Position numbers and translations under genes: made by a program | Origin: a virus | IMG/VR virus record: IMGVR_UViG_3300035544_000158 | Coordinates: 1 to 17,124 of that record | Strand: one strand, 5' to 3' | DNA: 17,124 bases | Shown here: positions 1 to 17,124 of the stretch, piece by piece | Layout: each line of letters opens with the position of its first letter | Numbering within the stretch: the stretch's first letter is position 1 | Notes under the pieces: model-generated | The model's input: only the letters and a program-made list of their open reading frames with translations | What the model was told of the DNA's origin: nothing | Databases searched by the model: none

Positions 1-127
1 TATCGATACCAGTTAGGATTGATAGCTGGTGCGGGGATAGCTGCTATAACTAAATCGGTGTTCAGTGCTGGTGATGCCAGGGAAACAGTAAATAAATTCA
101 ATGTTGTATTTGGTGAGGTGTCTGATC
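1..127. repeat. Terminal redundancy, copy 1 (identical to 16998-17124)
   Basis: Base-by-base comparison of the window start and end shows 127/127 identical. This length is typical of the overlap left on circular contigs by a k=127 de Bruijn assembler. Confidence 0.95.
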
Positions 128-2289
128 AGACGAAAGATTGGGCTGATAAATATTCAAATCAGATTGGGCGTTCAAAATATGCGACAATGGACTGGCTCAA
201 CAGCTTTCAAGATGTTCTGGTACCAATGGGACTTGCCAGAGATGAAGCAGCTGCACTTTCCAAAGATATGGTTACTTTAGCAGCTGACTTAGGTTCCTTC
301 AACAATGTTGGTACAGCAGAAGCGGCCAGAGGAATGCAGTCAGCTTTAGTTGGAAACCACGAAGCGGTTAGAATGTTAGGTGCTCAGCTCAATGAAGAGA
401 ATCTTAATGCTAGAGCTGCAGCAATGGGTTTTAAGGAAAACTTTGCTCAACTAGACAGCTTATCGAAAATGCAAATTAGATACCAAGAAATAATTGCTCA
501 ATCTCAAGATTCAATAGGCGATGCAACAAGGACTGCAATGGAATGGAATAATCAGGTTCAGAGATTCAAGGGAACTATTCGAGATGTTTCAATCGCAATG
601 GGTTTTAATTTCATACCGAGATTTACAGAGGGACTAATAGTAGTTAATGATTTTTTAGATAGAATAGAACAGAGCGAGAAGCTTACGGCAGCAGCTAGAT
701 TCTTTACTATCGGTGTTGCAATTACAGGAATAGCTGCAGCAATCGGAATGGTGAGCTCTGCGTGGCCTATGATAGGGGCAATATTCAGCATTCAGGGTTT
801 TGCTATAGCTGGTGCAGTAACAGGCCTAGTTCTATTGCTGGAAGACTTGTGGGTTGGTCTTAACGGAGGTGAAGCAGTATTAAATCCACTGATAGACTTC
901 ACCAAAGAATATAAAAATGAGGTATTGGCTGTAGCTGGAGTAATAACGGCATTTTTTGCACCTGCAATATATTCTACAGCAATGCCAGCAGTCGGAGCGT
1001 TCGCTACAAGTTTATTTGTAAAGGGTAAAATAGCCTTAACCTCCTTTGCAAGTGGAATTTGGACTGCTATAACGGCCTCATTCGCTTTTTGGAAGGCTTT
1101 AATTACTAAAGCTGTTGTTGGTGTGGCAAGTTTTGCTACTTCGGTAGCTGGGGCTGCCTGGACTGCAGCAACTACCTTTGTTGGAGCAATAGGTTCAGCG
1201 ATTACGGCAACATTATCATTTACAGCTGCACTGTTGGCTAACCCTATAACTTGGGTAGTGATAGGGATTGCTGCTTTAGGTGCTGCACTCTATACTTTGT
1301 ATAAAAATTGGGATACAGTGAGTGAATTTCTAACCAATACCTGGAATTCGTTTATTGATACTCTTTCAGCTGGTGTCAGCTGGATAAAAGAGAAATTTAT
1401 TAACCTGCTGCCTGATGTTGACATGCCGAGCCTACCAGATATAGCTGCTGGAATAAAGAATAAATTTAATGAGGCTGTTCAATGGATAAAAGAGAATCCG
1501 CTGACAGTAGTTAGATTCTTAGTTCCTGCAGTCAATCTCCCAGATATAATAAATAAGATTTACGAGGCTGGAAGGCAATTCATAAAGGACAAAACAGGGT
1601 TAGAACTGCCTGCCTTAAAACTACCTACACTGCCTGATTTGGTGGGAGCAGTCAAAGGGGTTTGGAATAAGGGTAAAGAGTTTGTGGCTGGCCTGAATCC
1701 TTTTAAATTTCCTGATATACCTGATTTACCTGATCCAATAGCAAAGATTGATGAGTGGTCAGCTAGAATAAAAAGTAAATTAAGCAATATAGATTTTGGA
1801 TCTGCTTTAAAGACTGCTATTGAAAATGCTATGGATAAACTGCCAGGCTGGATGCAGGGAATGGCTAAGAAAGTAATGGACTATCTGCCTCAATCACCCG
1901 CGAAAGTGGGACCATTGAGCCAGTTAGACAGGGTAGGACCAGGACTCACTCAAACCATTGGAAAAGGTGTCGATAAGTCCAGAGAGCAAGTTACTGGACC
2001 ATTAAGCAGCATGTGGAATGAGTCAATGATTGCTGAGCCTAAAACTATTGTTAAAGATTATAACCCGATGACAGGTATATCTGACAGTGGTTTTGGAAAT
2101 AGTAAGTCTGTAACCACGAATAATTATAATAACAGCAATTCTCAGCAGCAAAGGTCAGTGAAAAAAGTGGATAAGATTGAAATTATTGTTCAGGACTCTG
2201 GGGATAGCAAGCAGACTGCTATTGATGTCAGAAAAGAAATTGAAAAATATTTTGACGGAGAGGCCACGGCATCTTTAGCCAGTAGTTAA
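1..2289 (+). CDS. Phage tail tape measure protein (TP901-type core), 3' portion; continuous with 16767..17124 across the junction (839 aa in total)
   Basis: The frame is open from base 1 and matches the frame of the ATG at 16767. FGEVSDQTKDWADKYSNQIGRSKYATMDWLNSFQDVLVPMGL...ALVGNHEAVRMLGAQL resembles the conserved N-terminal core of TP901-family tape measures. There is a ~200-aa Ala/Gly/Ile-rich multi-helix hydrophobic centre, the size fits, and a strong terminator follows. Confidence 0.75.
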   Translation, partial: YRYQLGLIAGAGIAAITKSVFSAGDARETVNKFNVVFGEVSDQTKDWADKYSNQIGRSKYATMDWLNSFQDVLVPMGLARDEAAALSKDMVTLAADLGSFNNVGTAEAARGMQSALVGNHEAVRMLGAQLNEENLNARAAAMGFKENFAQLDSLSKMQIRYQEIIAQSQDSIGDATRTAMEWNNQVQRFKGTIRDVSIAMGFNFIPRFTEGLIVVNDFLDRIEQSEKLTAAARFFTIGVAITGIAAAIGMVSSAWPMIGAIFSIQGFAIAGAVTGLVLLLEDLWVGLNGGEAVLNPLIDFTKEYKNEVLAVAGVITAFFAPAIYSTAMPAVGAFATSLFVKGKIALTSFASGIWTAITASFAFWKALITKAVVGVASFATSVAGAAWTAATTFVGAIGSAITATLSFTAALLANPITWVVIGIAALGAALYTLYKNWDTVSEFLTNTWNSFIDTLSAGVSWIKEKFINLLPDVDMPSLPDIAAGIKNKFNEAVQWIKENPLTVVRFLVPAVNLPDIINKIYEAGRQFIKDKTGLELPALKLPTLPDLVGAVKGVWNKGKEFVAGLNPFKFPDIPDLPDPIAKIDEWSARIKSKLSNIDFGSALKTAIENAMDKLPGWMQGMAKKVMDYLPQSPAKVGPLSQLDRVGPGLTQTIGKGVDKSREQVTGPLSSMWNESMIAEPKTIVKDYNPMTGISDSGFGNSKSVTTNNYNNSNSQQQRSVKKVDKIEIIVQDSGDSKQTAIDVRKEIEKYFDGEATASLASS

Positions 2290-2300
2290 AAGAAAATCGC

Positions 2301-2323
2301 GAGGGGAGAAATCCCCTCTTTTT
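2301..2323 (+). terminator. Rho-independent terminator after the tape measure gene
   Basis: GAGGGGA-gaaa-TCCCCTC perfect 7-bp GC-rich stem followed by TTTTT, 12 nt after the stop codon. Confidence 0.85.
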
Positions 2324-2367: not shown

Positions 2368-2841
2368 ATGCAGGAGGAACTGACAAATCATGCAGATGTG
2401 GCTGACCATTTAAAATGCTATTTTAGTGGTGAGTTGGAAAAATCAATTAGACGGCTTAAGAGGCTGGTTGAAAGGGAATTCCCTGAGGACTATTATTGCA
2501 CGGTAAACGCTGTTAATCTGACACCTGGGAGGTCAAGTAATAGCACTGGTCATGCTGATTTTACGGCTTCAAGGGCAATTCATTTGGCTGATATTAGATT
2601 AACCAGGAAAAGAATTTATAAAAAGCATGTTGAACTGAGAGAAGGTATTAAAAAACAGCTGGAAAAGTATGATCAGGAAGTCATTGACCTATTAAAAGCC
2701 GATTTAGGACTTATTCAGGCCACTAAAACAGAGATAGTGAGTGCAGCAAGTTTTGGTTACAGCAAATCAAGAGTGATATTAAGTCAGGTTTTAAAAGAAT
2801 TAAGCACTGTAATTAGGAGGATTTTTGATGAATGCGATTGA
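2368..2841 (+). CDS. ArpU-like phage transcriptional regulator (putative late activator)
   Basis: 157 aa. The C-terminal segment EVIDLLKADLGLIQATKTEIVSAASFGYSKSRVILSQVLKEL has the sigma-region-4/ArpU-type layout (xxIxxLxY... GYSxxxV). Size and overall layout match ArpU-family proteins. Recognised by eye only. Confidence 0.4.
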   Translation: MQEELTNHADVADHLKCYFSGELEKSIRRLKRLVEREFPEDYYCTVNAVNLTPGRSSNSTGHADFTASRAIHLADIRLTRKRIYKKHVELREGIKKQLEKYDQEVIDLLKADLGLIQATKTEIVSAASFGYSKSRVILSQVLKELSTVIRRIFDECD

Positions 2842-3106
2842 AATCTTAGAAAATTACACAGATTTAAAGACAAAAAAAGAGCTTTTAGAATGCCAGGGGA
2901 AAGATAATTCAGAGCTGGAGGCTCAAATTAAATCTTATAACATAATTAAAAATTCATTATCTGAGAGAAAACAGAAAGTTTTGGAGCTGTATTTTGAGAA
3001 AGAGCACGAATATTATCGAATAGCAAGTGAAATTGGTTATAGTGTCAGCACTGTAAAAAGGGATATTAACGCAATCAAGTCAGAATTCAAGAAATATTTG
3101 GACTGA
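2828..3106 (+). CDS. Sigma-70 region-4-like HTH protein (RinA/ArpU/DUF1492-type small regulator)
   Basis: AGGAGG at 2815-2820 lies 7 nt before ATG 2828; the track start at 2825 is a TTG one codon upstream. LSERKQKVLELYFEKEHEYYRIASEIGYSVSTVKRDINAIKSEF is a classic region-4 type HTH. Confidence 0.5.
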   Translation: MNAIEILENYTDLKTKKELLECQGKDNSELEAQIKSYNIIKNSLSERKQKVLELYFEKEHEYYRIASEIGYSVSTVKRDINAIKSEFKKYLD

Positions 3107-3372: not shown

Positions 3373-3822
3373 ATGGAAGAATTAACTATCAAGGCAGCTG
3401 CTGAATACTATGGAAAAAGTGAGTCCTGGATAAGAAAAAGAATACTTTCAGGCGAATTGGAGGCAGAAAAAAGACCTTTTCAGTATGGAGAAAGATGGAT
3501 CACAACAGAAAAAGCACTGGACGATCTAGCAGAGAGACTGAATGAGCAGGCAAAAATGCAAAAAGACTCAGTGAACATCAGAGAAGTTTCAAAGCCAATA
3601 GGAAAAGAGCAATTTATCAATGAACTTATTGAGGCCACTGAGTCGAAAAATAAAGAAATGATAGATGATGCAGTTAATAAAGTAAGTGAGCAGTTTAAGC
3701 AGCAAAACAAACAGCTGCAGCAACAAAACGAGTTGATCAATAAACTATATGAGAAATTGGACCGAGTGGAGAAAAAGCAGGATAGAAGTTTAATCGACAA
3801 AATAAAACATTTTTTTAAGTGA
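3373..3822 (+). CDS. Excisionase/MerR-type HTH DNA-binding protein with C-terminal coiled coil
   Basis: AAGGAGGG SD. The N-terminus LTIKAAAEYYGKSESWIRKRILSGELEAEK...RWI is an HTH_17/Xis-like motif. The C-terminal half is Q/K/E-rich heptad-like sequence. Confidence 0.6.
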   Translation: MEELTIKAAAEYYGKSESWIRKRILSGELEAEKRPFQYGERWITTEKALDDLAERLNEQAKMQKDSVNIREVSKPIGKEQFINELIEATESKNKEMIDDAVNKVSEQFKQQNKQLQQQNELINKLYEKLDRVEKKQDRSLIDKIKHFFK

Positions 3823-5308: not shown

Positions 5309-5638
5309 TTGCTGAAACAAACTTATTATTTACAGCTTTTAGTAACAGCTGTTGAAAATGTAGTTGATGCCTATGATATTGTCGAGGAGCCAGACTTTAA
5401 TAGTGATATACAGCGAGAAATTCAAAAAATCGCAATGAAAACTGGTGAATCAGTCTTATTTGAGACAGAAATTAATGCTGAACTAATGAGCCTGAATTAC
5501 AAGCTGGGTCATTTAAACAGAGTTGAGAGTATAATTAATGATATGAAAGAGGAAATTGAAGGGAAAAGGACCGAACTCATTGATGAGCTGAATCTTGACA
5601 TTGAAAAGGAGGTGAGAAATGCTAAGAATAAAAAGTAG
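5309..5638 (+). CDS. Hypothetical coiled-coil protein
   Basis: AAGGAGGTG (5296-5304) precedes an in-frame TTG at 5309. The track's ATG at 5243 has no SD and would overlap the previous gene by 52 nt. Confidence 0.6.
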   Translation: MLKQTYYLQLLVTAVENVVDAYDIVEEPDFNSDIQREIQKIAMKTGESVLFETEINAELMSLNYKLGHLNRVESIINDMKEEIEGKRTELIDELNLDIEKEVRNAKNKK

Positions 5639-5780
5639 AATTCATGACAGAAAAACTGGTGAGATAATTAGTGAGGAAATTACAGACGAAGTTCCAGACA
5701 TCACTTTAGAAGAACTCAATCGGCCACTGGCTGAAATAATCTATAACAGGATCAAGGAAAAGAGAAAAAATAAAAATTAA
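5619..5780 (+). CDS. Small hypothetical protein (53 aa, below the ORF-track cutoff)
   Basis: AAGGAGGTG SD ends 5 nt before ATG 5619. Translation is MLRIKSRIHDRKTGEIISEEITDEVPDITLEELNRPLAEIIYNRIKEKRKNKN. It fills the gap between neighbouring genes and overlaps the upstream gene's end by 20 nt. Confidence 0.55.
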   Translation: MLRIKSRIHDRKTGEIISEEITDEVPDITLEELNRPLAEIIYNRIKEKRKNKN

Positions 5781-7217: not shown

Positions 7218-8819
7218 ATGAGTGGTAAAAAAGAAAAAAGACTGCTGGACCAACAGCAGCCAAACGACAGTAATAATATTATATCAGATAAAGAGAGATT
7301 CTTAAATACTTTATTCAAAAATTTATCAGGATTTATCGAAATTAGAGAAATAAAAGACGGCAAATCAAATCAAAAGTTCTTTCAAAATGTTGATGATCTG
7401 ATGGAATATGAACCTCCAACTGATAAAAATATTTATTTCGGTGTTATGACCAGGAGCAGAAAGCGTGGAAGAATTGAGGACACTAGAAAGACTAATGTTC
7501 TCTGGTTTGATTTTGATGATGTAGCAAGTTATGCAGAGATTGAGTATATTTTAAATATGAGGAACCTGCCAGAGCCTTCAATAATCGTAAACAGCGGTCA
7601 TGGGTATCACCTATATTATTTACTGGATAAGCCAGCAGGTGCAGAAATAAAAGCAGTTTTAAATAAATTCATTAAGATTACTGGTGCAGATAGTCGAGCT
7701 GCAGACTTAGCCAGAATAATGAGGCTGCCTGATACTATGAATGTCAAAGAGGACCCAGTCGAATGCAAATTAATGACAATCAGCAAAAATAAATATAACT
7801 TAAATGAGATTGCAGATTTATTAGGGGTAGAAGTAAAAGAACCACCTGAAAAAGGCCAGATACGGCCAGAAAAGGTTGCAGAGGTATTAGGGATTGACTA
7901 CAAGGGTATTAAATCGCAGATAGATAAACCCTGCATTAAATCAATTCTTGACGGCGTGCCAAAGGGAGAGAGGAACTGGCTTCTTGGCCGTTTAACTAGA
8001 CATTTAAAAGACGATTTGGCTATCAGCAAAATGAGAGCTGAAAAAGTAGTCAGAGTATGGAATTTAAAATGTGAGCCTTCTCAAATCGAGACTGAAGTTT
8101 TATCAAGTTTCAATTCATACTGGAATAATGATAATTTAAATTTGCAGGGCTGCAAGATATTAGACAGCACAGGTGATCTGATTCTTGATAAGCAGCAAAT
8201 ATTAAATAAATACTGTAACAAAGGGAAGTGCAGCTTAACCGAGAACTTCGAACTTGCCGAAATAGAAGGGGAGAGCCTTATTAAATTTAACAATCGACTG
8301 TTGAATAAAATTAAAAGTATGAGTGTATATTCTTTAATTATATACGGAGTATTGAGCATGCACGAAGAGGGTTTAACTAAAAGAAATGCTGCTAAAATTA
8401 TCGGAATAACTAAAAAAACATTCAAAAAGCACACTACCCAGCTGATAAAATTAGGTTTTATTAATGTCAGAAAAGGTATAAGGCAGCGTGGGACCTCTGA
8501 TTTGTATTATTTGAGGCAGCAGGGAACATTCAATCTTGGTAGAACCAGTATTAGTTATGCAGCAATCAGGCTTTTAAATGCTGAATTAAGGCAAGGATAC
8601 ATAAGACCAGCTGAAATTAAAGTGTACATGCTCTTAAGATATTTCGAATATCAAAGTAAGACTGGGGAAGTTTATCCAGCTACAACCACCCTGGCAGAAA
8701 AATTAGGGACCAGCAGACCCCGTCTGAGTTATTCAATCAATAGATTAGAAGAAAGAGACTTTATAAAAATAGACAGAGAAAAAAGACGATCTAACACTTA
8801 TATTTTTAAAGTTAGATAG
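7218..8819 (+). CDS. Replication initiator: AEP primase-polymerase (PrimPol) + PriCT-like + two winged-helix domains
   Basis: AEP motifs occur in order: VLWFDFDD (hhhDxD), NSGHGYHLYY (sGxGxH), IMRLPDTMN. A PriCT-1-like CIKSILDGVPKGERNWLLGRLTRHL follows. Then come wHTH-like LTKRNAAKIIGITKKTFKKHTTQLIKLGFINV and TLAEKLGTSRPRLSYSINRLEERDFIKI. Iterons follow immediately. Confidence 0.8.
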   Translation: MSGKKEKRLLDQQQPNDSNNIISDKERFLNTLFKNLSGFIEIREIKDGKSNQKFFQNVDDLMEYEPPTDKNIYFGVMTRSRKRGRIEDTRKTNVLWFDFDDVASYAEIEYILNMRNLPEPSIIVNSGHGYHLYYLLDKPAGAEIKAVLNKFIKITGADSRAADLARIMRLPDTMNVKEDPVECKLMTISKNKYNLNEIADLLGVEVKEPPEKGQIRPEKVAEVLGIDYKGIKSQIDKPCIKSILDGVPKGERNWLLGRLTRHLKDDLAISKMRAEKVVRVWNLKCEPSQIETEVLSSFNSYWNNDNLNLQGCKILDSTGDLILDKQQILNKYCNKGKCSLTENFELAEIEGESLIKFNNRLLNKIKSMSVYSLIIYGVLSMHEEGLTKRNAAKIIGITKKTFKKHTTQLIKLGFINVRKGIRQRGTSDLYYLRQQGTFNLGRTSISYAAIRLLNAELRQGYIRPAEIKVYMLLRYFEYQSKTGEVYPATTTLAEKLGTSRPRLSYSINRLEERDFIKIDREKRRSNTYIFKVR

Positions 8820-9012
8820 AAAAAATTAGGCCTGCCCTGACGGGTGGGTCTTTAGCTATAAGTGCATATTTGATACATGTAGATAGAAAATTTTAGGCTT
8901 GTTCTGTCGGGCACCTCTTAAGCTATAAGCGTAAATCTGATACATGTAGATAGAAAATTTTAAGACTGCTATGACGGGGCTCCCTTGGGCTATAAGCGTA
9001 AATCTGATACAT
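8814..9012. repeat. Three tandem 67-bp repeats (iterons; putative origin of the Rep replicon)
   Basis: Units at 8814-8880, 8881-8947 and 8948-9012. Conserved arms are AGATAGAAAAnnTTA and GCTATAAGyGyAAATyTGATACATGT, around a diverged GC-rich ~23-nt core (CTGnCGGG). The first unit overlaps the rep stop codon, and an AT-rich tract follows (9013-9190). Confidence 0.75.
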
Positions 9013-9168
9013 AAAGACTTTAAAAGGTTTATATATGAATATAGAACTTAAAGAATTAAAGGTATTAGAGAATAAATAAAGTGAATTGGTGAGGAAATAA
9101 TTAGCTGATGAGTTGAGGTAAAACTTTTTAAAAAAGTTAGCTGTCAACAAAATAATATAAAAGTGTGC

Positions 9169-10198: not shown

Positions 10199-11269
10199 TT
10201 AATCCTTCAAATTCTCAGCTTCTTTTATTGATATGTCGAGCCTCTCAGCTACTTCCTCCACAGTTTTTCTGCCGTCATTTAAATATTTTTTCCATCTGCT
10301 TTTAAGAGAATGATAATTTGTTGCACAGTTAGTAGTTTCGCAGAATTTTCTTTCCCTTCCACTGGTGTTCTCAACTGGGAACCAATCTCCACAATCTGGG
10401 TGATTACACTTTTTGAACTTTTTATTCCCTGTTATATCCTCAAAAAACTGCATATAAGCTACTGATAGCAAGGTTTTTGACTTATTAGCTGGCAGCAAAC
10501 TACTATTTTTTATTACTAAGTGAGGGTTAGTCAAGCTAAGGTGCTTATTTATATTAGCAGCAAGCATTTCTTTGGCTCTATCAACCGTTACTGCTTTACC
10601 GTTATTTTCAGTTAGTATATTTTTGATATACCAGGCTTTTGTATTATTCAAGTCAGGCAGCTCATTTTCCTGCAAACTTCCCCAGATTTCAACCCAACCC
10701 TGCAATTCTTCTACTGCTAATTTAAACATTTCGTAACTCTGGAAAGCATCACTATTAAGCCCTATATATTTTCTTTTTGGATAACATTCATCAAATGAAA
10801 TAACTTTTATTGGGTGAAAATCTGCTCCTAAAGACCCATATTTATTGCAGAATTCTATGATCTCATTATCATTATCGAGGTTCAATTTATTTAAATTAAG
10901 ATAGAATTTATTCTCAACATTCATTCCCTCATTATACGGATTATAGCCCTCCTTGCCACCATACCAGTGCTTTTTAATCTTTTCAGGTGAAGCAATAAAG
11001 AGACTTTCATCAGTCAGGTTATTGTAATCTTTATTGACACTCTCCACAAAGCTTTCCTTCAGCTTTTCTACTTCTTCAGAGATACTGGAAACTTTTTTAA
11101 TCTGATCTACTTCCCAGTCTGGTAGCTGGTTATTGTAATAATCGACCAGGTATTTATGATACAGCTGCTTGATCTTCTTAAACTTTAAAATTTTATAAGG
11201 ACCAAAATTATTGCTATCAATTCTGTTAATATCGACATTTTCTCCCTTAAATTGCTTTGTATAAGACAT
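10199..11269 (-). CDS. CGNR-type zinc-finger protein with C-terminal HTH; sits in the master-repressor position
   Basis: The only long minus-strand gene, divergent from the Cro-like gene. KKCNHPDCGDWFPVENTSGRERKFCETTNCATNYHSLKSRW follows the CGNR zinc-finger spacing (Cx4C...F...RxRxxC x4 C), with CATN in place of CGNR. The C-terminal RKTVEEVAERLDISIKEAENL is HTH-like. I do not recognise the N-terminal 280 aa. Confidence 0.45.
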   Translation of the reverse strand: MSYTKQFKGENVDINRIDSNNFGPYKILKFKKIKQLYHKYLVDYYNNQLPDWEVDQIKKVSSISEEVEKLKESFVESVNKDYNNLTDESLFIASPEKIKKHWYGGKEGYNPYNEGMNVENKFYLNLNKLNLDNDNEIIEFCNKYGSLGADFHPIKVISFDECYPKRKYIGLNSDAFQSYEMFKLAVEELQGWVEIWGSLQENELPDLNNTKAWYIKNILTENNGKAVTVDRAKEMLAANINKHLSLTNPHLVIKNSSLLPANKSKTLLSVAYMQFFEDITGNKKFKKCNHPDCGDWFPVENTSGRERKFCETTNCATNYHSLKSRWKKYLNDGRKTVEEVAERLDISIKEAENLKD

Positions 11270-11291
11270 ATTAATACCCCTTTTTTATCAG

Positions 11292-11336
11292 AATGACATA
11301 AACAATGACACTTTCAAACCTGTTTTTAATGTCATT
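11292..11336. promoter_or_regulatory. Three AATGACA boxes (putative operators) in the divergent control region
   Basis: AATGACA at 11292-11298 and 11304-11310 (direct), and TGTCATT at 11330-11336 (inverted). The third box abuts the -10 and predicted start site of the leftward promoter. Confidence 0.5.
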
Positions 11337-11339
11337 TTT

Positions 11340-11368
11340 ATTATAGACTATAAGTAGAGCAGTTGCAA
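11340..11368 (-). promoter_or_regulatory. Strong leftward promoter for the 356-aa gene
   Basis: Minus strand reads TTGCAA (11368-11363), 17-nt spacer, TATAAT (11345-11340). Confidence 0.7.
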
Positions 11369-11420
11369 TAGCTGAAAGAAAAAAATGATTTTATCTTTTA
11401 AAAAAGTGGAGGTGGATTTG

Positions 11421-11621
11421 GTGAATAGAGTTAGAGAATTTAGAAAGAAAAAAGGTTTAACACAGCTTGATTTGGCAGATATAACAGAGATTTATCAAAA
11501 TGACATTAGCCAAATTGAGACGGGAGGGAGAAAAGTTTTTCCAGGTTGGAGGAAAAGATTATCTGAGGCTCTGGAAGTGGAGGAAGAAATTCTTTTTCCT
11601 GATGAAGACGAGTTGAAATGA
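11421..11621 (+). CDS. XRE-family (Cro/cI-type) HTH regulator
   Basis: GGAGGTGG SD lies 5 nt before GTG 11421; the track's ATG at 11385 has no SD. VNRVREFRKKKGLTQLDLADITEIYQNDISQIETGGR is a canonical XRE HTH. Confidence 0.8.
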   Translation: MNRVREFRKKKGLTQLDLADITEIYQNDISQIETGGRKVFPGWRKRLSEALEVEEEILFPDEDELK

Positions 11622-12302: not shown

Positions 12303-13106
12303 ATGGGTTGGGTTAAACTGCACAGAGATATCTTAAATCACTGGGCTTATGATGATCCTGAAAAGCTAAAGGTCTGGATTACATTAATCGCCAAAGCTAC
12401 TCATAAAAAGCATACTCAAAATGTTGGTTATGAGTTAGCAAAGCTGGAGCCAGGACAGCTGGTGTTTGGCTTGATTAAGTTTTCTAAGTTAATTGATATA
12501 TCTAAATCAAAATTATACAGGATAATTAAGCTGCTGGAAAAAGACGAAATGATTGATTATGATACGGAAACCCACAAAGGAAACTTCTCTATAATTACTA
12601 TTAAAAATTGGGATAAATATCAACATGGGAAGGTGTCAAGCCCTACAGAACAGGGAGAACAAGAGGATAGTGAAAAGGAAGTGAAACGGGAGCGAAACGG
12701 CAGTGAAACGGCAGTGGAAACGAACAAGAATGTAAAGAACTTAAAGAATAAAGATCTATATAAATACGCAGATGAAATTCAGGCTGTACACAAACATTGG
12801 ATTGAATTGCTTGAGGACATTAACGCAGCTAACTTAACTAAAAAGCAGCAAAGGACTATTCTCACTAAACTAAAAAAATGGTCAGTTGAGGAAATCAAGC
12901 AGGCTATTTCAAATTATAACGAGGTTTACCGATCTGATTACTACTATAGCCACAATTTCACAATGTTTAAATTTATTAAGCAGGGAAACGGAGCTCCGAG
13001 GTTTTTACCTGGACTAGATGAAAAGCATGATGGGGATGTCTGGAAAGATTATTCAAAAAATAGAGGGGTTCCAAAAAGTAAACTACCACCAGACGAGTAC
13101 ATTTAG
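12303..13106 (+). CDS. Phage replisome organizer / replication initiation protein (N-terminal wHTH, DnaD/TIGR02220-like C-terminus)
   Basis: GWVKLHRDILNHWAYDDPEKLKVWITLIAKA...LEPGQLVFGLIKFSKLIDISKSKLYRIIKLLEKDEMI is the typical organizer N-domain. The C-terminal LTKKQQRTILTKLKKWSVEEIKQAISNY...FTMFKFIKQ resembles the conserved phage C-terminus. It sits directly upstream of the primase-helicase. Confidence 0.6.
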   Translation: MGWVKLHRDILNHWAYDDPEKLKVWITLIAKATHKKHTQNVGYELAKLEPGQLVFGLIKFSKLIDISKSKLYRIIKLLEKDEMIDYDTETHKGNFSIITIKNWDKYQHGKVSSPTEQGEQEDSEKEVKRERNGSETAVETNKNVKNLKNKDLYKYADEIQAVHKHWIELLEDINAANLTKKQQRTILTKLKKWSVEEIKQAISNYNEVYRSDYYYSHNFTMFKFIKQGNGAPRFLPGLDEKHDGDVWKDYSKNRGVPKSKLPPDEYI

Positions 13107-13117
13107 GAGGTTAAGCA

Positions 13118-14878
13118 ATGGATCCACGGGAATTAGCTGATTTATATTTAGGAGAATATAAGGACAAAGGGAATGAAATCAATGCTAAGAACTGCCCTTT
13201 TTGTGGACCGAATCCAAAGAGGGATAATCAATATAAATTTTTTATGAACAAGGAAACTGGAGCCTATAAGTGCTACAGAGAGAATCATTGTGGAGCCGAG
13301 GGTGGATTTAAAGATTTATTAGAGCACTTCGGGGAAGAGGATTATGACAATTATTATAAACCGAAAAAGAAAAAATATAAAAAGCCTAAAGTTTCAAATA
13401 CTACCGAGGTAAAAGGGAAGGTTGCTGAGTATTTAAAAAAGCGTGGAATCAGCGAAAAGACTTGGAACAACAAATATCTTGAAGCTAAAAATGGTCGAAT
13501 AGTTTTTAAATATTTTAAGAATGATGAACTGGTATTAGTAAAATATCGGTCAGCTGATAAAAAGAAAAAATACAGTGCTGAACCAGGAGGAAAACCAGTT
13601 CTTTGGGGAATAGATGAGGTTGATCCTAATGAAAGTGTGATTATTACAGAGGGTGAATTCGATAAATTAGCAATTGAGGAATGTGGAATCGACAATGTTG
13701 TCAGTGTGCCAATGGGTTCCAATAATCTAAAGTGGATAGAGCACGACTGGTCAGTCCTGGAGAAGGTCAAAGAGTTTATTATTTGGCCAGATAATGATGA
13801 AGCAGGAATGAAAATGAAAAATGAAGTAGTCAACAGGCTGGGAAAGCACAGGTGTAAAGTAGTTAAGTCGGAAATGAAAGATGCTAATCTCTTAATGTTC
13901 AAAAAAGGGAAGCAGGCAATCTACAATGCCTTAGATAATGCAGAGTTTGAGCCGATTGACAATGTAATTAGAATGGCAGATGTCGAGCCCCTTAAATTAA
14001 ATCAGATAGACAGCTGTCCTTCCAGTGTTCCAGCACTCAACAGGGTTCTTGGTGGTTTTATGATGGGATATATCACGGTCTGGACTGGTAAGAATTCAAG
14101 TGGTAAATCCACGCTGCTAAATCAAGAAATACTGGAGGCAATAGATCAGGGTTACGGTGTCGGATTGTATTCAGGAGAATTAAATGCCGATTTAGTTCAA
14201 AAGTGGATAGCATATCAGGCAGCAGGACCTCAAAATTTAGAATATGAATATCATGATCTAAAAAAAGAGGAAATGCCCGAGGTTCCAGATGATGTAATGG
14301 AAAAAATCAGAAAATGGTATGGTGATAATTTCTTTTACTATGACCTCAATTCCAGCACTAAGCCAAAGAAAATATTAAATACTTTTGAGAATTTATATAA
14401 GCAATATGGGACTAAAATTTTTGTAATAGATAACATAATGACCCCAGAATATGGTGGAAGTGGCAGTGAATATATGCATCGGCAAAGCAGATTTGTTACA
14501 GCTATTAAACAATTTGCTCAGAGATTAAATGTTCATGTTCATATTGTAGCACACCCGAGAAAATCTAAAGGAAAAGTTGAAAAAGAAGATGTGGCAGGAT
14601 TGTACGAGATAACTAATAAAACAGACAACTTAGTCGCTTTTCATAGAGTTACTAAAAATAATATTGATATTTTTGATGATGAGATTAAGAACAGATATAT
14701 AGAATTGAACCAGCTGGAAGATAAGCCAAAAGATTTTAATGTGGTAGAAGTTCAGAAATCAAGGATTTACGGCTGGCAAAATGTAAAATCAGCTCTAAAA
14801 TTTGATGTGGATTCAAAGAGGTTTTATCCGTTCAATTCGAGGACTCTAAAAAATAAAAAGTATGGGTGGGAAAAATGA
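13118..14878 (+). CDS. Bifunctional DNA primase-helicase (T7 gp4/Twinkle-like: Zn ribbon + Toprim + SF4 RecA-like helicase)
   Basis: Zn motif CPFCG...CYRENHCG. Toprim ITEGEFDKLA and IWPDNDEAG. Walker A GKNSSGKST, Walker B IFVIDNIM, then HIVAHPRK. Confidence 0.85.
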   Translation: MDPRELADLYLGEYKDKGNEINAKNCPFCGPNPKRDNQYKFFMNKETGAYKCYRENHCGAEGGFKDLLEHFGEEDYDNYYKPKKKKYKKPKVSNTTEVKGKVAEYLKKRGISEKTWNNKYLEAKNGRIVFKYFKNDELVLVKYRSADKKKKYSAEPGGKPVLWGIDEVDPNESVIITEGEFDKLAIEECGIDNVVSVPMGSNNLKWIEHDWSVLEKVKEFIIWPDNDEAGMKMKNEVVNRLGKHRCKVVKSEMKDANLLMFKKGKQAIYNALDNAEFEPIDNVIRMADVEPLKLNQIDSCPSSVPALNRVLGGFMMGYITVWTGKNSSGKSTLLNQEILEAIDQGYGVGLYSGELNADLVQKWIAYQAAGPQNLEYEYHDLKKEEMPEVPDDVMEKIRKWYGDNFFYYDLNSSTKPKKILNTFENLYKQYGTKIFVIDNIMTPEYGGSGSEYMHRQSRFVTAIKQFAQRLNVHVHIVAHPRKSKGKVEKEDVAGLYEITNKTDNLVAFHRVTKNNIDIFDDEIKNRYIELNQLEDKPKDFNVVEVQKSRIYGWQNVKSALKFDVDSKRFYPFNSRTLKNKKYGWEK

Positions 14879-15942: not shown

Positions 15943-16161
15943 ATGGAAAATAGCAAAGTGATTTATTTAGATAGATTTAAAGGAGAGGGAAAAGGGAAAA
16001 ATGAATGCAGCAGACTTAGAAATAAAATTATCCAGGCTCTAAGAGAGGAAAATTATTTTGATAACCCAGATGCCCCAAGCAGAATTGAAATAAATATTTC
16101 CTTGAGTAAAAGCAAAAATAATAAAAAAACAGAGATATTTATTAGGCAAACTGATGAATAG
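15943..16161 (+). CDS. Small hypothetical protein
   Basis: AAGGAGG SD 8 nt upstream. 72 aa, basic. Confidence 0.55.
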   Translation: MENSKVIYLDRFKGEGKGKNECSRLRNKIIQALREENYFDNPDAPSRIEINISLSKSKNNKKTEIFIRQTDE

Positions 16162-16265
16162 TCGCAGTTTCTGCAGGCCCTAAAAAGAGCAAATTTAATA
16201 ATAGTCGGAGTTTTCGGAGCCCCTAAAAAAGGATAAACCGAGTTTTCCGAGGCCTTAAAAAAGAG
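16158..16265. repeat. Three direct ~32-nt repeats (A-boxes)
   Basis: ATAGTCGCAGTTTCTGCAGGCCCTAAAAAGAG (16158-16189), ATAGTCGGAGTTTTCGGAGCCCCTAAAAAAGG (16201-16232), ATAAACCGAGTTTTCCGAGGCCTTAAAAAAGAGA (16233-16266). Each holds an internal 5-mer duplicated across TTTT and ends in GCCyTAAAAAAG. Confidence 0.7.
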
Positions 16266-16275
16266 AGAGTTTGCT

Positions 16276-16430
16276 GACACGGTTATGCGTGCGAGACTAA
16301 AACTTAACAAAACTTCACATTGAGAGACTTACAAAAGCTTACATTGGATACCTGAAAAAACCTGAGATTGAGTAGAGTTTGGTAACACGATAGACGCGTG
16401 AGAATGTTTACATATGTTGACATTGGAGAG
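16276..16430. repeat. Second set of direct repeats (B/C boxes)
   Basis: ACACGGTTATGCGTGCGAGA (16277-) resembles ACACGATAGACGCGTGAGAA (16384-). ACTTAACAAAACTTCACATTGAGA (16302-) resembles ACTTACAAAAGCTTACATTGGATA (16327-). ACATTG(G)AGAG occurs three times (16317, 16341, 16421). Confidence 0.6.
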
Positions 16431-16438
16431 TAAAGGAG

Positions 16439-16741
16439 GTGATTATTATCAAGTCTAAACAGGTAAAGGTTAAGGGTGAAGATTACTTAATCAAGAATCC
16501 TGGTGCCAGATGGATCATAAAATTAGACGATGAATTAAAGAATAGTGGTGAAAACTTTGGTTCGTATGATTTGAAAGATTTCTCTGATAGGCTGCTGAGT
16601 AAGGTAGTTGACGGGGAACTGCCAGCTGATGAAGAAGTGCAAGAAAAATTATTTAATGAAACATTGAAATTTATTGGTTTGTCGATAAAAGAGGAAACTA
16701 TTGACGGTGAAAAGATAATGTATTTTGACTTTGAGCCTTAA
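16439..16741 (+). CDS. Tail assembly chaperone-like protein (gpG-like), tentative
   Basis: About 100 aa and acidic, immediately upstream of the tape measure. KQVKVKGEDYLIKNPGARWIIKLDDEL resembles the N-terminus of siphoviral TACs. The start is uncertain: GTG 16439 abuts AAGGAGG but lies 8 nt after GGAGAG (16425-16430). Confidence 0.4.
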   Translation: MIIIKSKQVKVKGEDYLIKNPGARWIIKLDDELKNSGENFGSYDLKDFSDRLLSKVVDGELPADEEVQEKLFNETLKFIGLSIKEETIDGEKIMYFDFEP

Positions 16742-16766
16742 TAGATTACAGAGAGGTGTTTAAGTT

Positions 16767-17124
16767 ATGACAGGAGGTTCACAGAGAAGTTTACATTTCA
16801 AAGTTGGATTCGGAATTAATGACAGGCCACTCACTCAGGCCGATAGACGAGTTGATGATTTTAAGCAGAGTGTGGTCAGGGCTACTGACAGAATGGGAGC
16901 CTTAGAGAGAAAAGCATATACTGCTGGCCGAGCTATGTCCAATGCTTTCAGTGGTGTTAAAAGAGCAATGGGTCGAGGGATTGCATTACTTGAAAGATAT
17001 CGATACCAGTTAGGATTGATAGCTGGTGCGGGGATAGCTGCTATAACTAAATCGGTGTTCAGTGCTGGTGATGCCAGGGAAACAGTAAATAAATTCAATG
17101 TTGTATTTGGTGAGGTGTCTGATC
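16767..17124 (+). CDS. Tape measure protein, 5' portion (continues at base 1 via the circular junction)
   Basis: GAGAGG SD lies 10 nt before ATG 16767. The ORF is open to the window end and in frame with 1..2289. Bases 16998-17124 duplicate 1-127. Confidence 0.75.
   Translation, partial: MTGGSQRSLHFKVGFGINDRPLTQADRRVDDFKQSVVRATDRMGALERKAYTAGRAMSNAFSGVKRAMGRGIALLERYRYQLGLIAGAGIAAITKSVFSAGDARETVNKFNVVFGEVSD
16998..17124. repeat. Terminal redundancy, copy 2 (identical to 1-127)
   Basis: 127/127 identity with the window start. Confidence 0.95.

What the first reader, a model, noticed from the sequence alone, without database searches (positions are those of the whole stretch)
1..2289. Orphan tape measure (with TAC-like partner at 16439..16741) as the only structural cassette
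In siphoviruses the TMP gene sits after the major tail and gpG/GT chaperone genes and before the distal-tail and baseplate genes. Here the TAC-like ORF is preceded by a repeat-rich non-coding region. The TMP is followed by a strong terminator (2301-2323) and then regulators. TMP length sets tail length, and TMP leaves the tail ahead of the DNA. An element carrying only its own TMP could re-size or re-programme a helper tail or condition its own ejection; alternatively, the protein may have been exapted. Notable features are a ~200-aa multi-helix hydrophobic centre (nt ~650-1300) and a cluster of (L/F)PD(I/L) proline motifs (nt ~1400-1750). I see no C-terminal peptidase or lysozyme-like motif and no gpGT-type frameshift extension.
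Basis: partly seen in the sequence, partly recalled or inferred. Interest (0 to 1): 0.75.

Follow-up and report, generated by a model that had tools for sequence, protein, structure and literature searches.

The report
Plasmid-like phage satellite carrying its own tape measure
The window is a complete 17-kb circular element of Halanaerobium that has no capsid, terminase or other tail genes but keeps a working tape measure gene and a small chaperone-like gene. Both were taken from, and are still being swapped with, a co-occurring contractile-tailed phage, which makes it a likely new example of the recently described satellites that build hybrid tails.

Summary
The window closes on itself: its first 127 nt equal its last 127 nt, so the true length is 16,997 bp. 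An 839-aa tape measure protein (TMP) gene crosses the junction (16767..16997 + 1..2289). It is preceded by a 100-aa chaperone-like ORF and followed by a terminator. No other structural gene is present.

The TMP matches TMP profiles (PHROG 1e-31) and is under strong purifying selection (dN/dS 0.09). At least five syntenic variants of the element, 16-18 kb each, all carry the cassette.

The donor or helper is a temperate ~47-48 kb myovirus of Halanaerobium, not a siphovirus. It occurs in the same metagenome as the element and as a prophage in H. saccharolyticum MA284_T2. One element variant shares 95% nucleotide identity over 2.3 kb of TMP with that prophage. The last ~50 aa of the TMP and the chaperone-like ORF are always element-specific.

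The "repeat-rich" spacer upstream holds a 26-nt motif that matches, 25 of 26, a site inside the helper's small-terminase gene. This is a candidate pac mimic.

The best reading is a non-integrating satellite that builds chimeric tails, as shown for Vibrio PLEs (Nature 2026). That makes it a new variant of a known kind. The satellite lifestyle is inferred, not shown.

The parts
16767..17124 (+). 5' part of the tape measure gene (ATG at 16767). Window positions 16998-17124 repeat positions 1-127 because the contig is circular.
   Evidence: 127-nt terminal overlap; the joined ORF is 839 aa; homology to phage TMP genes begins at 16763-16771.
1..2289 (+). Remainder of the tape measure gene, with the stop codon at 2287-2289. 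Together with 16767-16997 it makes 2,520 nt.
   Evidence: PHROG TMP families, 1e-31. PDB TMP chain 9d93 at 2e-6; orthologues sit in myophage tail modules; dN/dS 0.086.
682..1300 (+). Hydrophobic multi-helix centre of the TMP (aa ~305-511). The adjoining stretch, aa ~360-560, exists as two alleles that are about 30% identical where they align (about 10-25% in 60-aa windows). Both alleles occur in phages and in elements.
   Evidence: hydropathy; segment identities.
1408..1737 (+). Cluster of six [L/F]PD[I/L/V/P] motifs in the TMP.
2140..2289 (+). Element-private C-terminal module of the TMP (last ~50 aa). Nucleotide homology to every phage allele stops at 2139.
   Evidence: homology breakpoints; element vs element 84%, phage vs phage 86-100%, element vs phage 37-47%; it resembles the C-termini of more distant phage TMPs.
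16439..16741 (+). Chaperone-like ORF of 100 aa. It is a single-domain relative of the helper's 163-aa gene in the TAC position and has no frameshift extension.
   Evidence: 32% over 59 aa and the shared motif Y.L.NPG.RW.IK; both hit phrog_1778; pLDDT 75; weak fold matches, mostly labelled tail assembly chaperone; dN/dS 0.21-0.27.
2301..2323 (+). Intrinsic terminator closing the cassette.
   Evidence: 7-bp stem with 5 GC pairs, loop of 4, then a T run.
16146..16270 (+). Three tandem units of ~43 nt. The third holds CCGAGTTTTCCGAGGCCTTAAAAAAG (16238-16263), which matches 25 of 26 a site inside the helper's small-terminase gene. Candidate pac mimic.
   Evidence: (0 of 200 shuffles); the helper gene is TerS, phrog_309 at 2e-63; no terS coding remnant in the elements.
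12303..13106 (+). DnaD-like replication initiator. Its N-terminal domain is 58% identical to the helper's initiator. Internal 11-nt iterons lie at 12669-12723.
13118..14878 (+). Toprim primase / DnaB-type helicase fusion.
   Evidence: phrog_239 at 5e-92.
5619..5780 (+). 53-aa ORF, 75% identical to a helper early-region ORF that lies next to the helper's antirepressor-like gene.
7218..9013 (+). Prim-pol / winged-helix replication protein (7218-8819) followed by 3 x 67-nt tandem repeats (8813-9013). Likely a plasmid-type origin.
10199..11621 (.). Divergent pair: a 356-aa minus-strand ORF (10199-11269, a family found only in these elements) and a 78-aa XRE-type HTH on the plus strand (11385-11621). 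Candidate regulatory switch.
2368..3106 (+). 157-aa ORF and a 93-aa sigma-70 region-4-like HTH immediately downstream of the cassette.

Best explanation
The window is a complete, non-integrating, plasmid-like phage satellite of Halanaerobium, 16,997 bp long.

What it carries:
- two replication modules: a prim-pol with 67-nt iterons, and a DnaD-like initiator with a primase-helicase;
- a divergent regulatory pair;
- a cis site that copies a sequence inside the small-terminase gene of a temperate ~47-48 kb myophage;
- one structural cassette, made of a chaperone-like gene plus a full-length TMP.

Proposed mechanism (inferred). When the helper phage enters its late phase, the element replicates. 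The helper terminase recognises the pac-like repeats and packages the element by headful, plausibly as trimers, since 3 x 17.0 kb is 105% of the co-occurring 48.4-kb helper. The element's TMP, kept soluble by its own chaperone-like protein, takes the place of the helper TMP inside helper tube, sheath and baseplate. The particles therefore have chimeric tails.

Shown here by sequence. The TMP body is freely exchanged with helper alleles by recombination. The last ~50 aa and the chaperone-like gene stay private to the element. I take these private parts to be where the element-specific function lies. Possible functions are preferential assembly, resistance to an element-encoded inhibitor of the helper TMP, or DNA delivery into cells that exclude the helper.
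For: Closed circle with no other structural genes:
- Circularity.
- Gene content.

A conserved family:
- At least five backbone variants are syntenic and all carry the cassette.
- P0002 is indexed in 34 blocks of the collection.

The TMP is functional:
- dN/dS is 0.086 at dS 0.77.
- It matches TMP profiles.

Helper identity:
- The orthologous TMP lies in a conserved myophage tail module.
- The helper is temperate: it has a serine recombinase, a repressor and an antirepressor-like gene.
- It is a prophage in H. saccharolyticum MA284_T2.
- The element's contig and a 48,392-nt helper contig come from the same metagenome, 3300035042.
- A member of the element's 356-aa protein family is named as coming from a Halanaerobium MAG.

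Ongoing exchange with the helper:
- There is 95.2% nucleotide identity over 2,338 nt between element L005 and the prophage TMP.
- Both centre alleles occur in both phages and elements.
- Breakpoints fall exactly at the TMP start and ~150 nt before its stop.

Other links to the helper:
- A 25/26 match to the terS-internal site, with 0 of 200 shuffles reaching it. The motif is repeated and conserved in all elements.
- The initiator N-domain is 58% identical and the 53-aa ORF is 75% identical.

Precedent:
- PLEs encode a TMP and TAC that replace ICP1's in chimeric tails and are needed for transduction (PMC12987554).
- EPIP satellites encode a TMP (PMC12822802).
Against: - There is no direct evidence of encapsidation, helper-dependent induction, or presence of the protein in virions.
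- No integrase or attachment site is present, unlike PICIs and PLEs, so an ordinary plasmid remains possible.
- The pac assignment rests on position inside terS and on sequence identity only. The helper's real pac site is unknown.
- The chaperone-like ORF has only one of the helper gene's two domains (100 vs 163 aa) and lacks the downstream overlapping ORF, so it may not be a complete TAC. Its fold matches are weak (best E 2.6e-3).
- No baseplate hub gene accompanies the TMP, unlike in PLE.
- The divergence of the C-terminal module could be a passive result of recombination having to resolve inside the gene rather than an adaptation.
- Same-sample co-occurrence was found for one sample only.
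Confidence: 0.6

Rival explanations
1. Defence plasmid. The element is a plasmid that protects its host by interfering with tail assembly. Its TMP has a foreign C-terminal module, and its chaperone is truncated and lacks the tube-recruiting extension. Together they act as dominant-negative competitors that poison helper tail assembly. The element itself is not packaged.
For: - The chaperone-like ORF has only one of the phage gene's two domains and no overlapping extension ORF.
- The TMP C-terminus, which in solved contractile tails contacts the hub (established knowledge), is the part that differs.
- Tail-assembly interference by mobile elements is known: Tai systems (PMC11364771, listed) and PLE11 Rta.
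- There is no integrase and there are plasmid-type iterons.
Against: - The whole 839-aa protein, including the membrane-type centre, is under strong purifying selection and tracks helper alleles. That is more than a decoy would need.
- The terS-internal motif, repeated and conserved, suggests packaging.
- Element size is confined to ~16.3-17.8 kb, about one third of the helper.
- No PADLOC hit for the 10 element proteins scanned.
Confidence: 0.15
2. Plasmid with a passenger gene. An ordinary Halanaerobium plasmid repeatedly picks up the TMP region from resident prophages by recombination, with no role for the protein in the plasmid's biology.
For: - 95% nucleotide identity to a prophage allele shows recent transfer.
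- The TMP is 41% GC against 34% for the rest of the element.
- The element has plasmid-like replication genes.
Against: - The cassette is present at the same place in every backbone variant, including ones whose other genes differ.
- dN/dS is 0.09 between element copies at dS 0.77.
- The private C-terminal module and the private chaperone-like gene are conserved among elements.
- A dedicated terminator and conserved upstream motifs are present.
Confidence: 0.1
3. Exapted membrane protein. The TMP has been recruited for a non-virion role in the element's own maintenance or transfer, for example a membrane channel or anchor for DNA export or uptake, or lysis. It uses its multi-helix hydrophobic centre and is independent of any phage tail.
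For: - The hydrophobic centre has at least four to six membrane-type segments.
- There are no other tail genes.
Against: - Continuing exchange of the whole body with tail-embedded phage alleles implies that the same constraints act on both.
- The phage chaperone-domain homologue is retained next to it.
- The element also shares a pac-like motif and other genes with the phage.
Confidence: 0.08
4. Assembly artefact or fragment of a larger phage genome.
For: The TMP gene is split by the ends of the window.
Against: - The 127-nt end overlap closes the circle with the ORF in frame.
- An independent assembly closes with a 141-nt overlap.
- The same gene order is seen in many samples and from several assemblers.
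Confidence: 0.02

Closest known systems
[quoted passage not shown]
   Same: - Both are small elements without capsid or most tail genes that parasitise, or are predicted to parasitise, a contractile-tailed phage.
- Both carry their own TMP with an adjacent chaperone gene.
- In PLE the satellite TMP replaces the helper's in virions and is needed for transduction.
   Different: - There is no sequence relationship between the two.
- This element has no integrase and appears to be a plasmid.
- It has no baseplate hub gene and no recognised capsid-remodelling gene.
- Its TMP is 59-85% identical to helper alleles and locally up to 100% identical, against ~20% for PLE versus ICP1. It is in active recombinational exchange with the helper.
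- Only the last ~50 aa and the chaperone-like gene are private to the element.
- The host is a halophilic anaerobe (Halanaerobiales).
- Nothing has been tested experimentally.
EPIPs, 11-kb satellites of Mycolicibacterium aichiense prophage HerbertWM (Qian et al., bioRxiv Dec 2025, PMC12822802)
   Same: - Both are satellites noted for encoding a TMP.
- Particles with altered tail length have been reported for EPIPs.
   Different: - EPIPs also encode TerS, head-tail connectors, a scaffold, a capsid protein and a serine integrase. The present element has none of these.
- The helpers' tail types and the host phyla differ.
SaPI/PICI-type satellites packaged as multimers or through helper pac/cos mimicry (e.g. 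SaPIbov5), and P4, which can persist as a plasmid
   Same: - Size is about one third of the helper.
- They carry their own replication module and a regulatory switch.
- They use the helper's packaging signal.
   Different: - This element has no integrase, no Stl/Ppi/Cpm-type genes and no recognisable terS.
- PICIs and P4 do not carry a TMP, apart from the putative tmp genes reported in some cf-PICIs in Extended Data Fig. 10 of PMC12987554.
pSSVx/pSSVi satellite plasmids of Sulfolobus fuselloviruses (own knowledge)
   Same: Both are extrachromosomal plasmids that depend on a helper virus for packaging and spread.
   Different: - pSSVx and pSSVi are archaeal and their helper is non-tailed.
- No structural gene is shared.
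Tape measure proteins of E217/Pam3-like contractile-tailed phages
   Same: - The element's gene is an orthologue of the TMP of a Halanaerobium myophage whose tail module carries E217_gp31_N sheath, PhiTE tube, Dit_like, Pam3_gp18, sheath initiator and baseplate J domains.
   Different: - The gene sits outside any tail module.
- It has a private C-terminal ~50 aa.

Membership tests
Phage tail length tape measure protein | Significant profile match to TMP families | tested here: met
   PHROGs phrog_1535 at 1.1e-31, plus a further 10 TMP-annotated PHROGs. The PDB profile hits 9d93 'Tapemeasure protein' at 2e-6. Pfam PF10145 is not matched, although distant relatives carry it.
Phage tail length tape measure protein | Orthologues encoded between the chaperone genes and the distal-tail/baseplate genes of a tail module | tested here: met
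   Orthologues with 59-85% identity lie between the tube/163-aa/75-aa ORFs and the Dit_like/Pam3_gp18/baseplate J genes. In the element itself this context is absent.
Phage tail length tape measure protein | Physically located in the tail lumen, setting tail length | not testable with these tools
   Needs virion proteomics and EM.
Tail assembly chaperone (gpG/gpGT type) | Encoded immediately upstream of the TMP and homologous to a phage gene in that position | tested here: met
   The ORF lies 25 nt upstream of the TMP. It is 32% identical over 59 aa (E 2e-5) to the helper's 163-aa gene. Both hit phrog_1778.
Tail assembly chaperone (gpG/gpGT type) | Programmed frameshift giving a longer GT product | tested here: not met
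   The element has no overlapping downstream ORF and no space for one. The helper has a 75-aa ORF overlapping in the +1 frame.
Tail assembly chaperone (gpG/gpGT type) | TAC fold | tested here: inconclusive
   The AF2 model has pLDDT 75 from a 4-sequence alignment. The best Foldseek E-value is 2.6e-3 with TM 0.5-0.6. Named hits are mostly tail assembly chaperones and T4 gp26/gp51-like proteins.
Phage satellite (general) | Lacks the genes for an autonomous virion but has its own replication and regulation | tested here: met
   no capsid, portal, terminase, tube, sheath, baseplate or lysis genes. Two replication modules and HTH regulators are present.
Phage satellite (general) | An identifiable helper with which it co-occurs and shares specific sequences | tested here: met
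   Both come from the same metagenome, 3300035042. They share the TMP, the chaperone domain, the initiator N-domain, the 53-aa ORF and the terS-internal motif.
Phage satellite (general) | Packaging signal recognised by the helper terminase | tested here: inconclusive
   The motif matches 25 of 26 a site inside helper terS, is triplicated and is conserved in all elements. The helper's pac site has not been mapped.
Phage satellite (general) | Helper-dependent induction, encapsidation and transfer | not testable with these tools
   Requires culture experiments or virion-fraction sequencing.
PICI / PLE families | Chromosomal integration through an integrase and attachment site | tested here: not met
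   No recombinase domain is found in any ORF. All copies are ~16-18 kb free contigs and two are circular. No integrated copy turned up in 185,579 species genomes scanned with TMP patterns.
PICI / PLE families | Sequence homology of core genes (Stl/Pri-Rep/TerS for PICI; PLE core genes) | not tested
   No PICI or PLE reference sequences were compared directly. Pfam, PHROG and PADLOC scans gave no such annotation.
Plasmid | Circular replicon with an initiator and iterons | tested here: met
   Circular. A prim-pol/wHTH protein is followed by 3 x 67-nt repeats, and a DnaD-like gene contains 11-nt iterons. No partition or conjugation genes were found.

The most novel reading that the evidence does not exclude
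This is an independent, plasmid-borne origin of TMP piracy in which satellite and helper trade the body of the tape measure gene, including a dimorphic membrane-inserting centre. Meanwhile the satellite keeps a private C-terminal hub-end module and a private single-domain chaperone. The private pair would give the satellite's TMP priority in helper tails, or immunity to a satellite-encoded inhibitor of the helper TMP. Carrying a centre allele different from that of the co-resident helper would let satellite particles deliver DNA into helper lysogens that exclude helper-type tape measures. The satellite would also serve as a reservoir from which helpers acquire new TMP alleles.
Probability: 0.25. 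Interest if true: 0.8.

Novelty: new variant of a known kind. Interest (0 to 1): 0.6.

Why it matters
Satellite-encoded tape measure proteins were unknown until 2025-2026. The one experimentally dissected case (PLE/ICP1) leaves open how the satellite's TMP is selectively used.

This family would be a phylogenetically unrelated, non-integrating example from a different phylum. Its cassette is reduced to the minimum: one chaperone domain plus a TMP. Natural recombinants narrow the element-specific determinants to about 50 C-terminal residues and the small chaperone-like gene. That gives a concrete, testable handle on the selectivity question.

It also shows that TMP alleles flow between a phage and its putative satellite. 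Finally, it points to a mobile element that may shape phage-host dynamics of Halanaerobium.

Tried and rejected
- Megablast of the whole window against GenBank phages and PLSDB plasmids found nothing.
- Pfam on the TMP and on the 100-aa ORF gave no hit. NCBIfam gave only a far sub-threshold phage-tail hit.
- Rfam and tRNA scans were empty.
- PADLOC on 10 of the element's proteins (nine uncharacterised ORFs and the prim-pol protein) found no defence system.
- The 356-aa ORF has no PDB relative, and its family is confined to these elements. Its role as regulator is a guess from position only.
- I looked for a decayed terS gene around the pac-like motif. None was found, so I rejected the pseudogene-remnant reading.
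- I looked in the helper for the second conserved spacer motif (GAGTTTGNTRACACG-N6-CGCGTG). It is absent there, so a shared late promoter could not be shown.
- I considered tail re-sizing as the purpose. I rejected it as necessary because phage alleles span 776-845 aa and one matches the element's length.
- I considered a siphovirus helper and rejected it.
- The literature search on Halanaerobium phages found no description of this element.
- The helper's genome ends were not fetched, so its exact size (46.8-48.4 kb) rests on contig lengths and on the structural module continuing across the contig ends.
Full report
**1. What is in the window**

The first 127 nt of the window are identical to the last 127 nt. 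This is the signature of a circular contig written out with an assembler's k-mer overlap, so the true length is 16,997 bp. When the overlap is removed, the ORF listed as 19..2289 joins an upstream part and becomes a single gene. It runs from ATG 16767 across the junction to the stop at 2289 and encodes 839 aa.

A relative from another assembly, L005, closes with a 141-nt overlap. Another, L083, has the same gene split over its two ends. The genome is closed.

**2. Is it a tape measure protein?**

- Pfam finds nothing.
- PHROGs finds tail length tape measure families over the whole length: phrog_1535 at 1.1e-31 for aa 28-297, and a further 10 TMP-annotated families, most of them matching aa 365-826.
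- A profile of the family hits the PDB chain 9d93 'Tapemeasure protein' at 2e-6.
- Most tellingly, proteins 59-85% identical lie in complete tail modules. The gene order there is tail terminator, sheath (E217_gp31_N), tube (PhiTE), a 163-aa ORF, an overlapping 75-aa ORF, the TMP, Dit_like, Pam3_gp18, sheath initiator, baseplate J.

- The hydrophobic centre spans aa 305-511, nt ~680-1300.
- Six [L/F]PD[I/L/V/P] motifs lie at nt 1408-1726.
- The terminator sits at 2301-2318 plus a T run.
- No enzymatic domain is found.

**3. The upstream ORF**

ORF 16439-16741 (100 aa) aligns with the N-terminal domain of the phage's 163-aa gene: 32% over 59 aa, E 2e-5, with the shared motif Y.L.NPG.RW.IK. Both proteins hit phrog_1778. 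The phage protein hits it twice, so it is a tandem of the domain.

The phage gene occupies the chaperone position and has an overlapping 75-aa ORF in the +1 frame. The element has neither the second domain nor any extension.

An AF2 model (pLDDT 75, shallow alignment) gives only weak fold matches, with best E 2.6e-3 and TM 0.5-0.6. The named hits are mostly tail assembly chaperones. 'TAC-like' is therefore a fair label, but one defining feature of TACs, the frameshift product, is absent.

**4. The rest of the element**

No capsid, portal, terminase, tube, sheath, baseplate, lysis or integrase gene is detectable. The following are present:
- a prim-pol/winged-helix protein followed by 3 x 67-nt tandem repeats;
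- an RNase H-like ORF;
- a divergent pair made of a 356-aa ORF, whose family is confined to these elements, and an XRE HTH;
- a DnaD-like initiator with internal 11-nt iterons;
- a primase-helicase (phrog_239 at 5e-92);
- an ERCC4 nuclease;
- several HTH proteins, including a sigma-70 region-4-like one just after the cassette.

**5. A family of such elements**

Contigs of 15.8-17.8 kb with the same gene order recur in JGI, ENA and Logan assemblies. One TMP variant, P0002, is indexed in 34 blocks of the collection.

In a matrix of element and phage markers against all fetched loci, the loci fall cleanly into two classes. The TMP and the small ORF are the only genes shared between the classes.

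Variants differ in backbone genes. L009 and L083, for example, have a 460-aa DnaB helicase instead of the 586-aa primase-helicase, and L009 has a 426-aa prim-pol. All of them keep the cassette at the same place.

Between the window and L005 the TMP has dS 0.77 and dN/dS 0.086. The small ORF has dN/dS 0.21-0.27. Both are maintained as protein-coding genes.

**6. The helper candidate**

The phage class is one conserved temperate myovirus.
- Structural proteins are 90-100% identical across samples.
- It encodes a serine recombinase, an XRE repressor and an ORF6N antirepressor-like gene.
- It has a TerS (phrog_309 at 2e-63) directly upstream of TerL.
- It carries a reverse transcriptase and bAvd, the marks of a diversity-generating retroelement, downstream of the baseplate genes.
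- Contigs reach 46.8-48.4 kb.
- It is a prophage in the isolate Halanaerobium saccharolyticum MA284_T2.
- A member of the element's 356-aa family carries the NCBI name of a Halanaerobium MAG.
- GC content agrees: element 35%, phage 34-37%.
- The contig carrying the identical TMP comes from JGI sample 3300035042. The 48,392-nt phage contig comes from the same sample.

**7. Exchange of the TMP between phage and element**

Identities were computed over four segments, aa 1-360 / 361-560 / 561-790 / 791-839:

| Comparison | 1-360 | 361-560 | 561-790 | 791-839 |
|---|---|---|---|---|
| Element P0002 vs the H. saccharolyticum prophage | 97% | 100% | 87% | 37% |
| Element P0005 vs phage L018 | 72% | 91% | 94% | 47% |
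| Window vs element P0005 | 78% | 29% | 83% | 84% |
| Prophage L076 vs phage L001 | 73% | 30% | 93% | 100% |

At the nucleotide level, L005 and the prophage share 95.2% identity over 2,338 nt.

The part of the protein spanning aa ~360-560 therefore exists as two alleles that are about 30% identical where they align, and about 10-25% identical in 60-aa windows. Each allele is found both in phages and in elements.

In contrast, the last ~50 aa are always of one type in elements and of another type in phages. Nucleotide homology between element and phage starts at the TMP start codon and ends ~150-166 nt before the stop.

The element-type C-terminus resembles the C-termini of more distant phage TMPs, P0019 and P0020. 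It is thus a normal variant of a TMP end domain and not a degenerate tail.

In the sample where both were found, the element's TMP carries the centre allele that the co-resident phage lacks (window vs L018-type: 30%; L018 stands in for the same-sample contig, whose TMP shows the same 59% overall identity).

**8. Other links to the phage**

The third unit holds CCGAGTTTTCCGAGGCCTTAAAAAAG. This differs at one position from a sequence lying inside the helper's terS coding region. None of 200 shuffles gives such a match.

The motif is present, in two or three variant copies, in the same spacer of every element. No other trace of terS is there.

It is established knowledge that the pac sites of headful phages usually lie within terS, and that satellites commonly copy the helper's packaging site. 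I therefore read these repeats as a pac mimic. This is an inference.

The element also shares two further sequences with the helper:
- the N-terminal domain of its DnaD-like initiator (58% identity), although the iterons differ;
- a 53-aa ORF (75% identity).

Three element genomes equal 50,991 bp, which is 105% of the co-occurring 48,392-nt phage contig. That would fit headful packaging of trimers without any capsid remodelling. This is also an inference.

**9. Mechanism proposed**

The element is a plasmid-like satellite that is packaged by the helper terminase through the pac-like repeats. It supplies its own TMP, plus a cognate single-domain chaperone, to helper tail assembly and so produces chimeric tails.

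Shown here:
- homology;
- closure of the genome;
- conservation and purifying selection;
- recombination with the helper;
- co-occurrence in one metagenome;
- the shared motif.

Inferred:
- packaging;
- incorporation of the TMP into tails;
- why a private TMP pays.

For the last point there are three non-exclusive possibilities:
- (a) priority in assembly through the private chaperone and C-terminus pair;
- (b) resistance to an element-encoded inhibitor of the helper TMP, as with Rta in PLE11;
- (c) delivery into helper lysogens whose exclusion systems act on the helper's TMP.

It is also possible that the C-terminal divergence is simply what is left when recombination must resolve inside the gene.

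**10. Comparison with what is known**

Mathur, Boyd et al. (Nature 2026; PMC12987554) showed the following:
- all PLEs encode a TMP and a TAC, and PLE11 also a baseplate hub;
- these replace ICP1's proteins in PLE virions;
- tails differ by the predicted 10 nm;
- deleting tmp cuts transduction by 96-99.9%.

They also list putative tmp genes in PLE-like elements and in some cf-PICIs. Qian et al. (PMC12822802) report TMP-encoding EPIP satellites in Mycolicibacterium.

The principle is therefore known, but only very recently. The present family is not a member of PLE, PICI or EPIP. It has no integrase, no capsid or connector genes, no hub and no sequence relationship. It differs in being extrachromosomal, in having a TMP nearly identical to helper alleles and exchanging with them, and in its host phylum. 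I rate it a new variant of a known kind.

**11. Rivals**

- A defence plasmid that poisons tail assembly with a mismatched TMP end and a truncated chaperone: 0.15.
- A plasmid with a passenger gene: 0.10.
- An exapted membrane protein: 0.08.
- An artefact: 0.02.

The evidence against each is given in the rival entries. The strongest general arguments are purifying selection over the full length, the conserved position in all variants, the pac-like motif and the narrow size range.

**12. Verdict**

Interest is moderate to high. This looks like a second or third independent case of a mechanism published only in 2025-2026, and its natural recombinants point to where selectivity may reside. There is no experimental support yet.

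Noticed in passing
window 1-127 and 16998-17124: An exact 127-nt terminal overlap. The window is a circular contig of 16,997 bp written with an assembler k-mer overlap.
   Followed up: yes
window 8813-9013: Three tandem 67-nt repeats (73-78% identical to the first copy) begin at the stop of the prim-pol/winged-helix gene. They are probably the iterons of a plasmid-type origin.
   Followed up: partly
window 12669-12723 (inside the DnaD-like gene); L067 7230-7310: Five 11-nt iterons (AGTGAAACGGN) lie inside the initiator gene. The helper's homologous gene has a different iteron (TGACAAACG-like) at the same place. The two initiators share an N-domain but probably not origin specificity.
   Followed up: partly
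window 16146-16270; L005 7300-7610; L009 3130-3445: In each copy of the pac-like unit the two half-sites co-vary: CGCAG/TGCAG, CGGAG/CGGAG, CCGAG/CCGAG, each followed by GCCyTAAAAA. The internal direct repeat is kept although its sequence changes. This is unexplained.
   Followed up: partly
window 16267-16300 and 16375-16405: Two copies of a ~30-nt motif (GAGTTTGnTrACACG-N6-CGCGTGnGAGA) lie between the pac-like repeats and the chaperone-like ORF. The motif is conserved in other elements and absent from the helper loci examined. It may be an operator or activator site for the cassette.
   Followed up: partly
window 16400-16450: Relatives have a 112-aa version of the chaperone-like ORF starting MF(T/I)YVDI. 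In the window and in L011 that start is out of frame, leaving a GTG that overlaps the Shine-Dalgarno sequence. The true start codon here is uncertain.
   Followed up: partly
window 5619-5780; L067 600-758: A 53-aa ORF is 75% identical to a helper ORF located just after the helper's ORF6N antirepressor-like gene. Its function is unknown and it may be tied to induction.
   Followed up: no
window 10199-11269 (minus strand): A 356-aa ORF with only a weak C-terminal CGNR zinc-finger hit. Its family comprises five clusters, all on these elements. It is divergent from an XRE gene, in the position of a master regulator.
   Followed up: partly
window 3373-3822 and 2825-3106: The 149-aa HTH_17/DUF5053 protein and the 93-aa sigma-70 r4-like protein both give weak hits (E ~5e-4 to 1e-3) to small-terminase PHROGs. 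A satellite-encoded TerS-like protein cannot be excluded.
   Followed up: no
L001 9290-9998: The helper's chaperone pair is a 163-aa ORF (two phrog_1778 domains) and a 75-aa ORF overlapping in the +1 frame at TTT-CTT-G, not the usual -1. This may be a +1 programmed frameshift.
   Followed up: partly
L001 19454-21260: The helper phage carries a bAvd gene and a reverse transcriptase downstream of the baseplate and putative fibre genes. These are the marks of a diversity-generating retroelement.
   Followed up: no
L013, L076 versus L001, L010, L018: Within an otherwise 90-100% identical phage structural module, the TMP is by far the most variable gene. It has two centre alleles and lengths of 776-845 aa.
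   Followed up: yes
window 16767-2289 versus the rest of the window: The TMP gene is 41% GC, against 34% for the remainder of the element and 37% for a phage TMP allele.
   Followed up: partly
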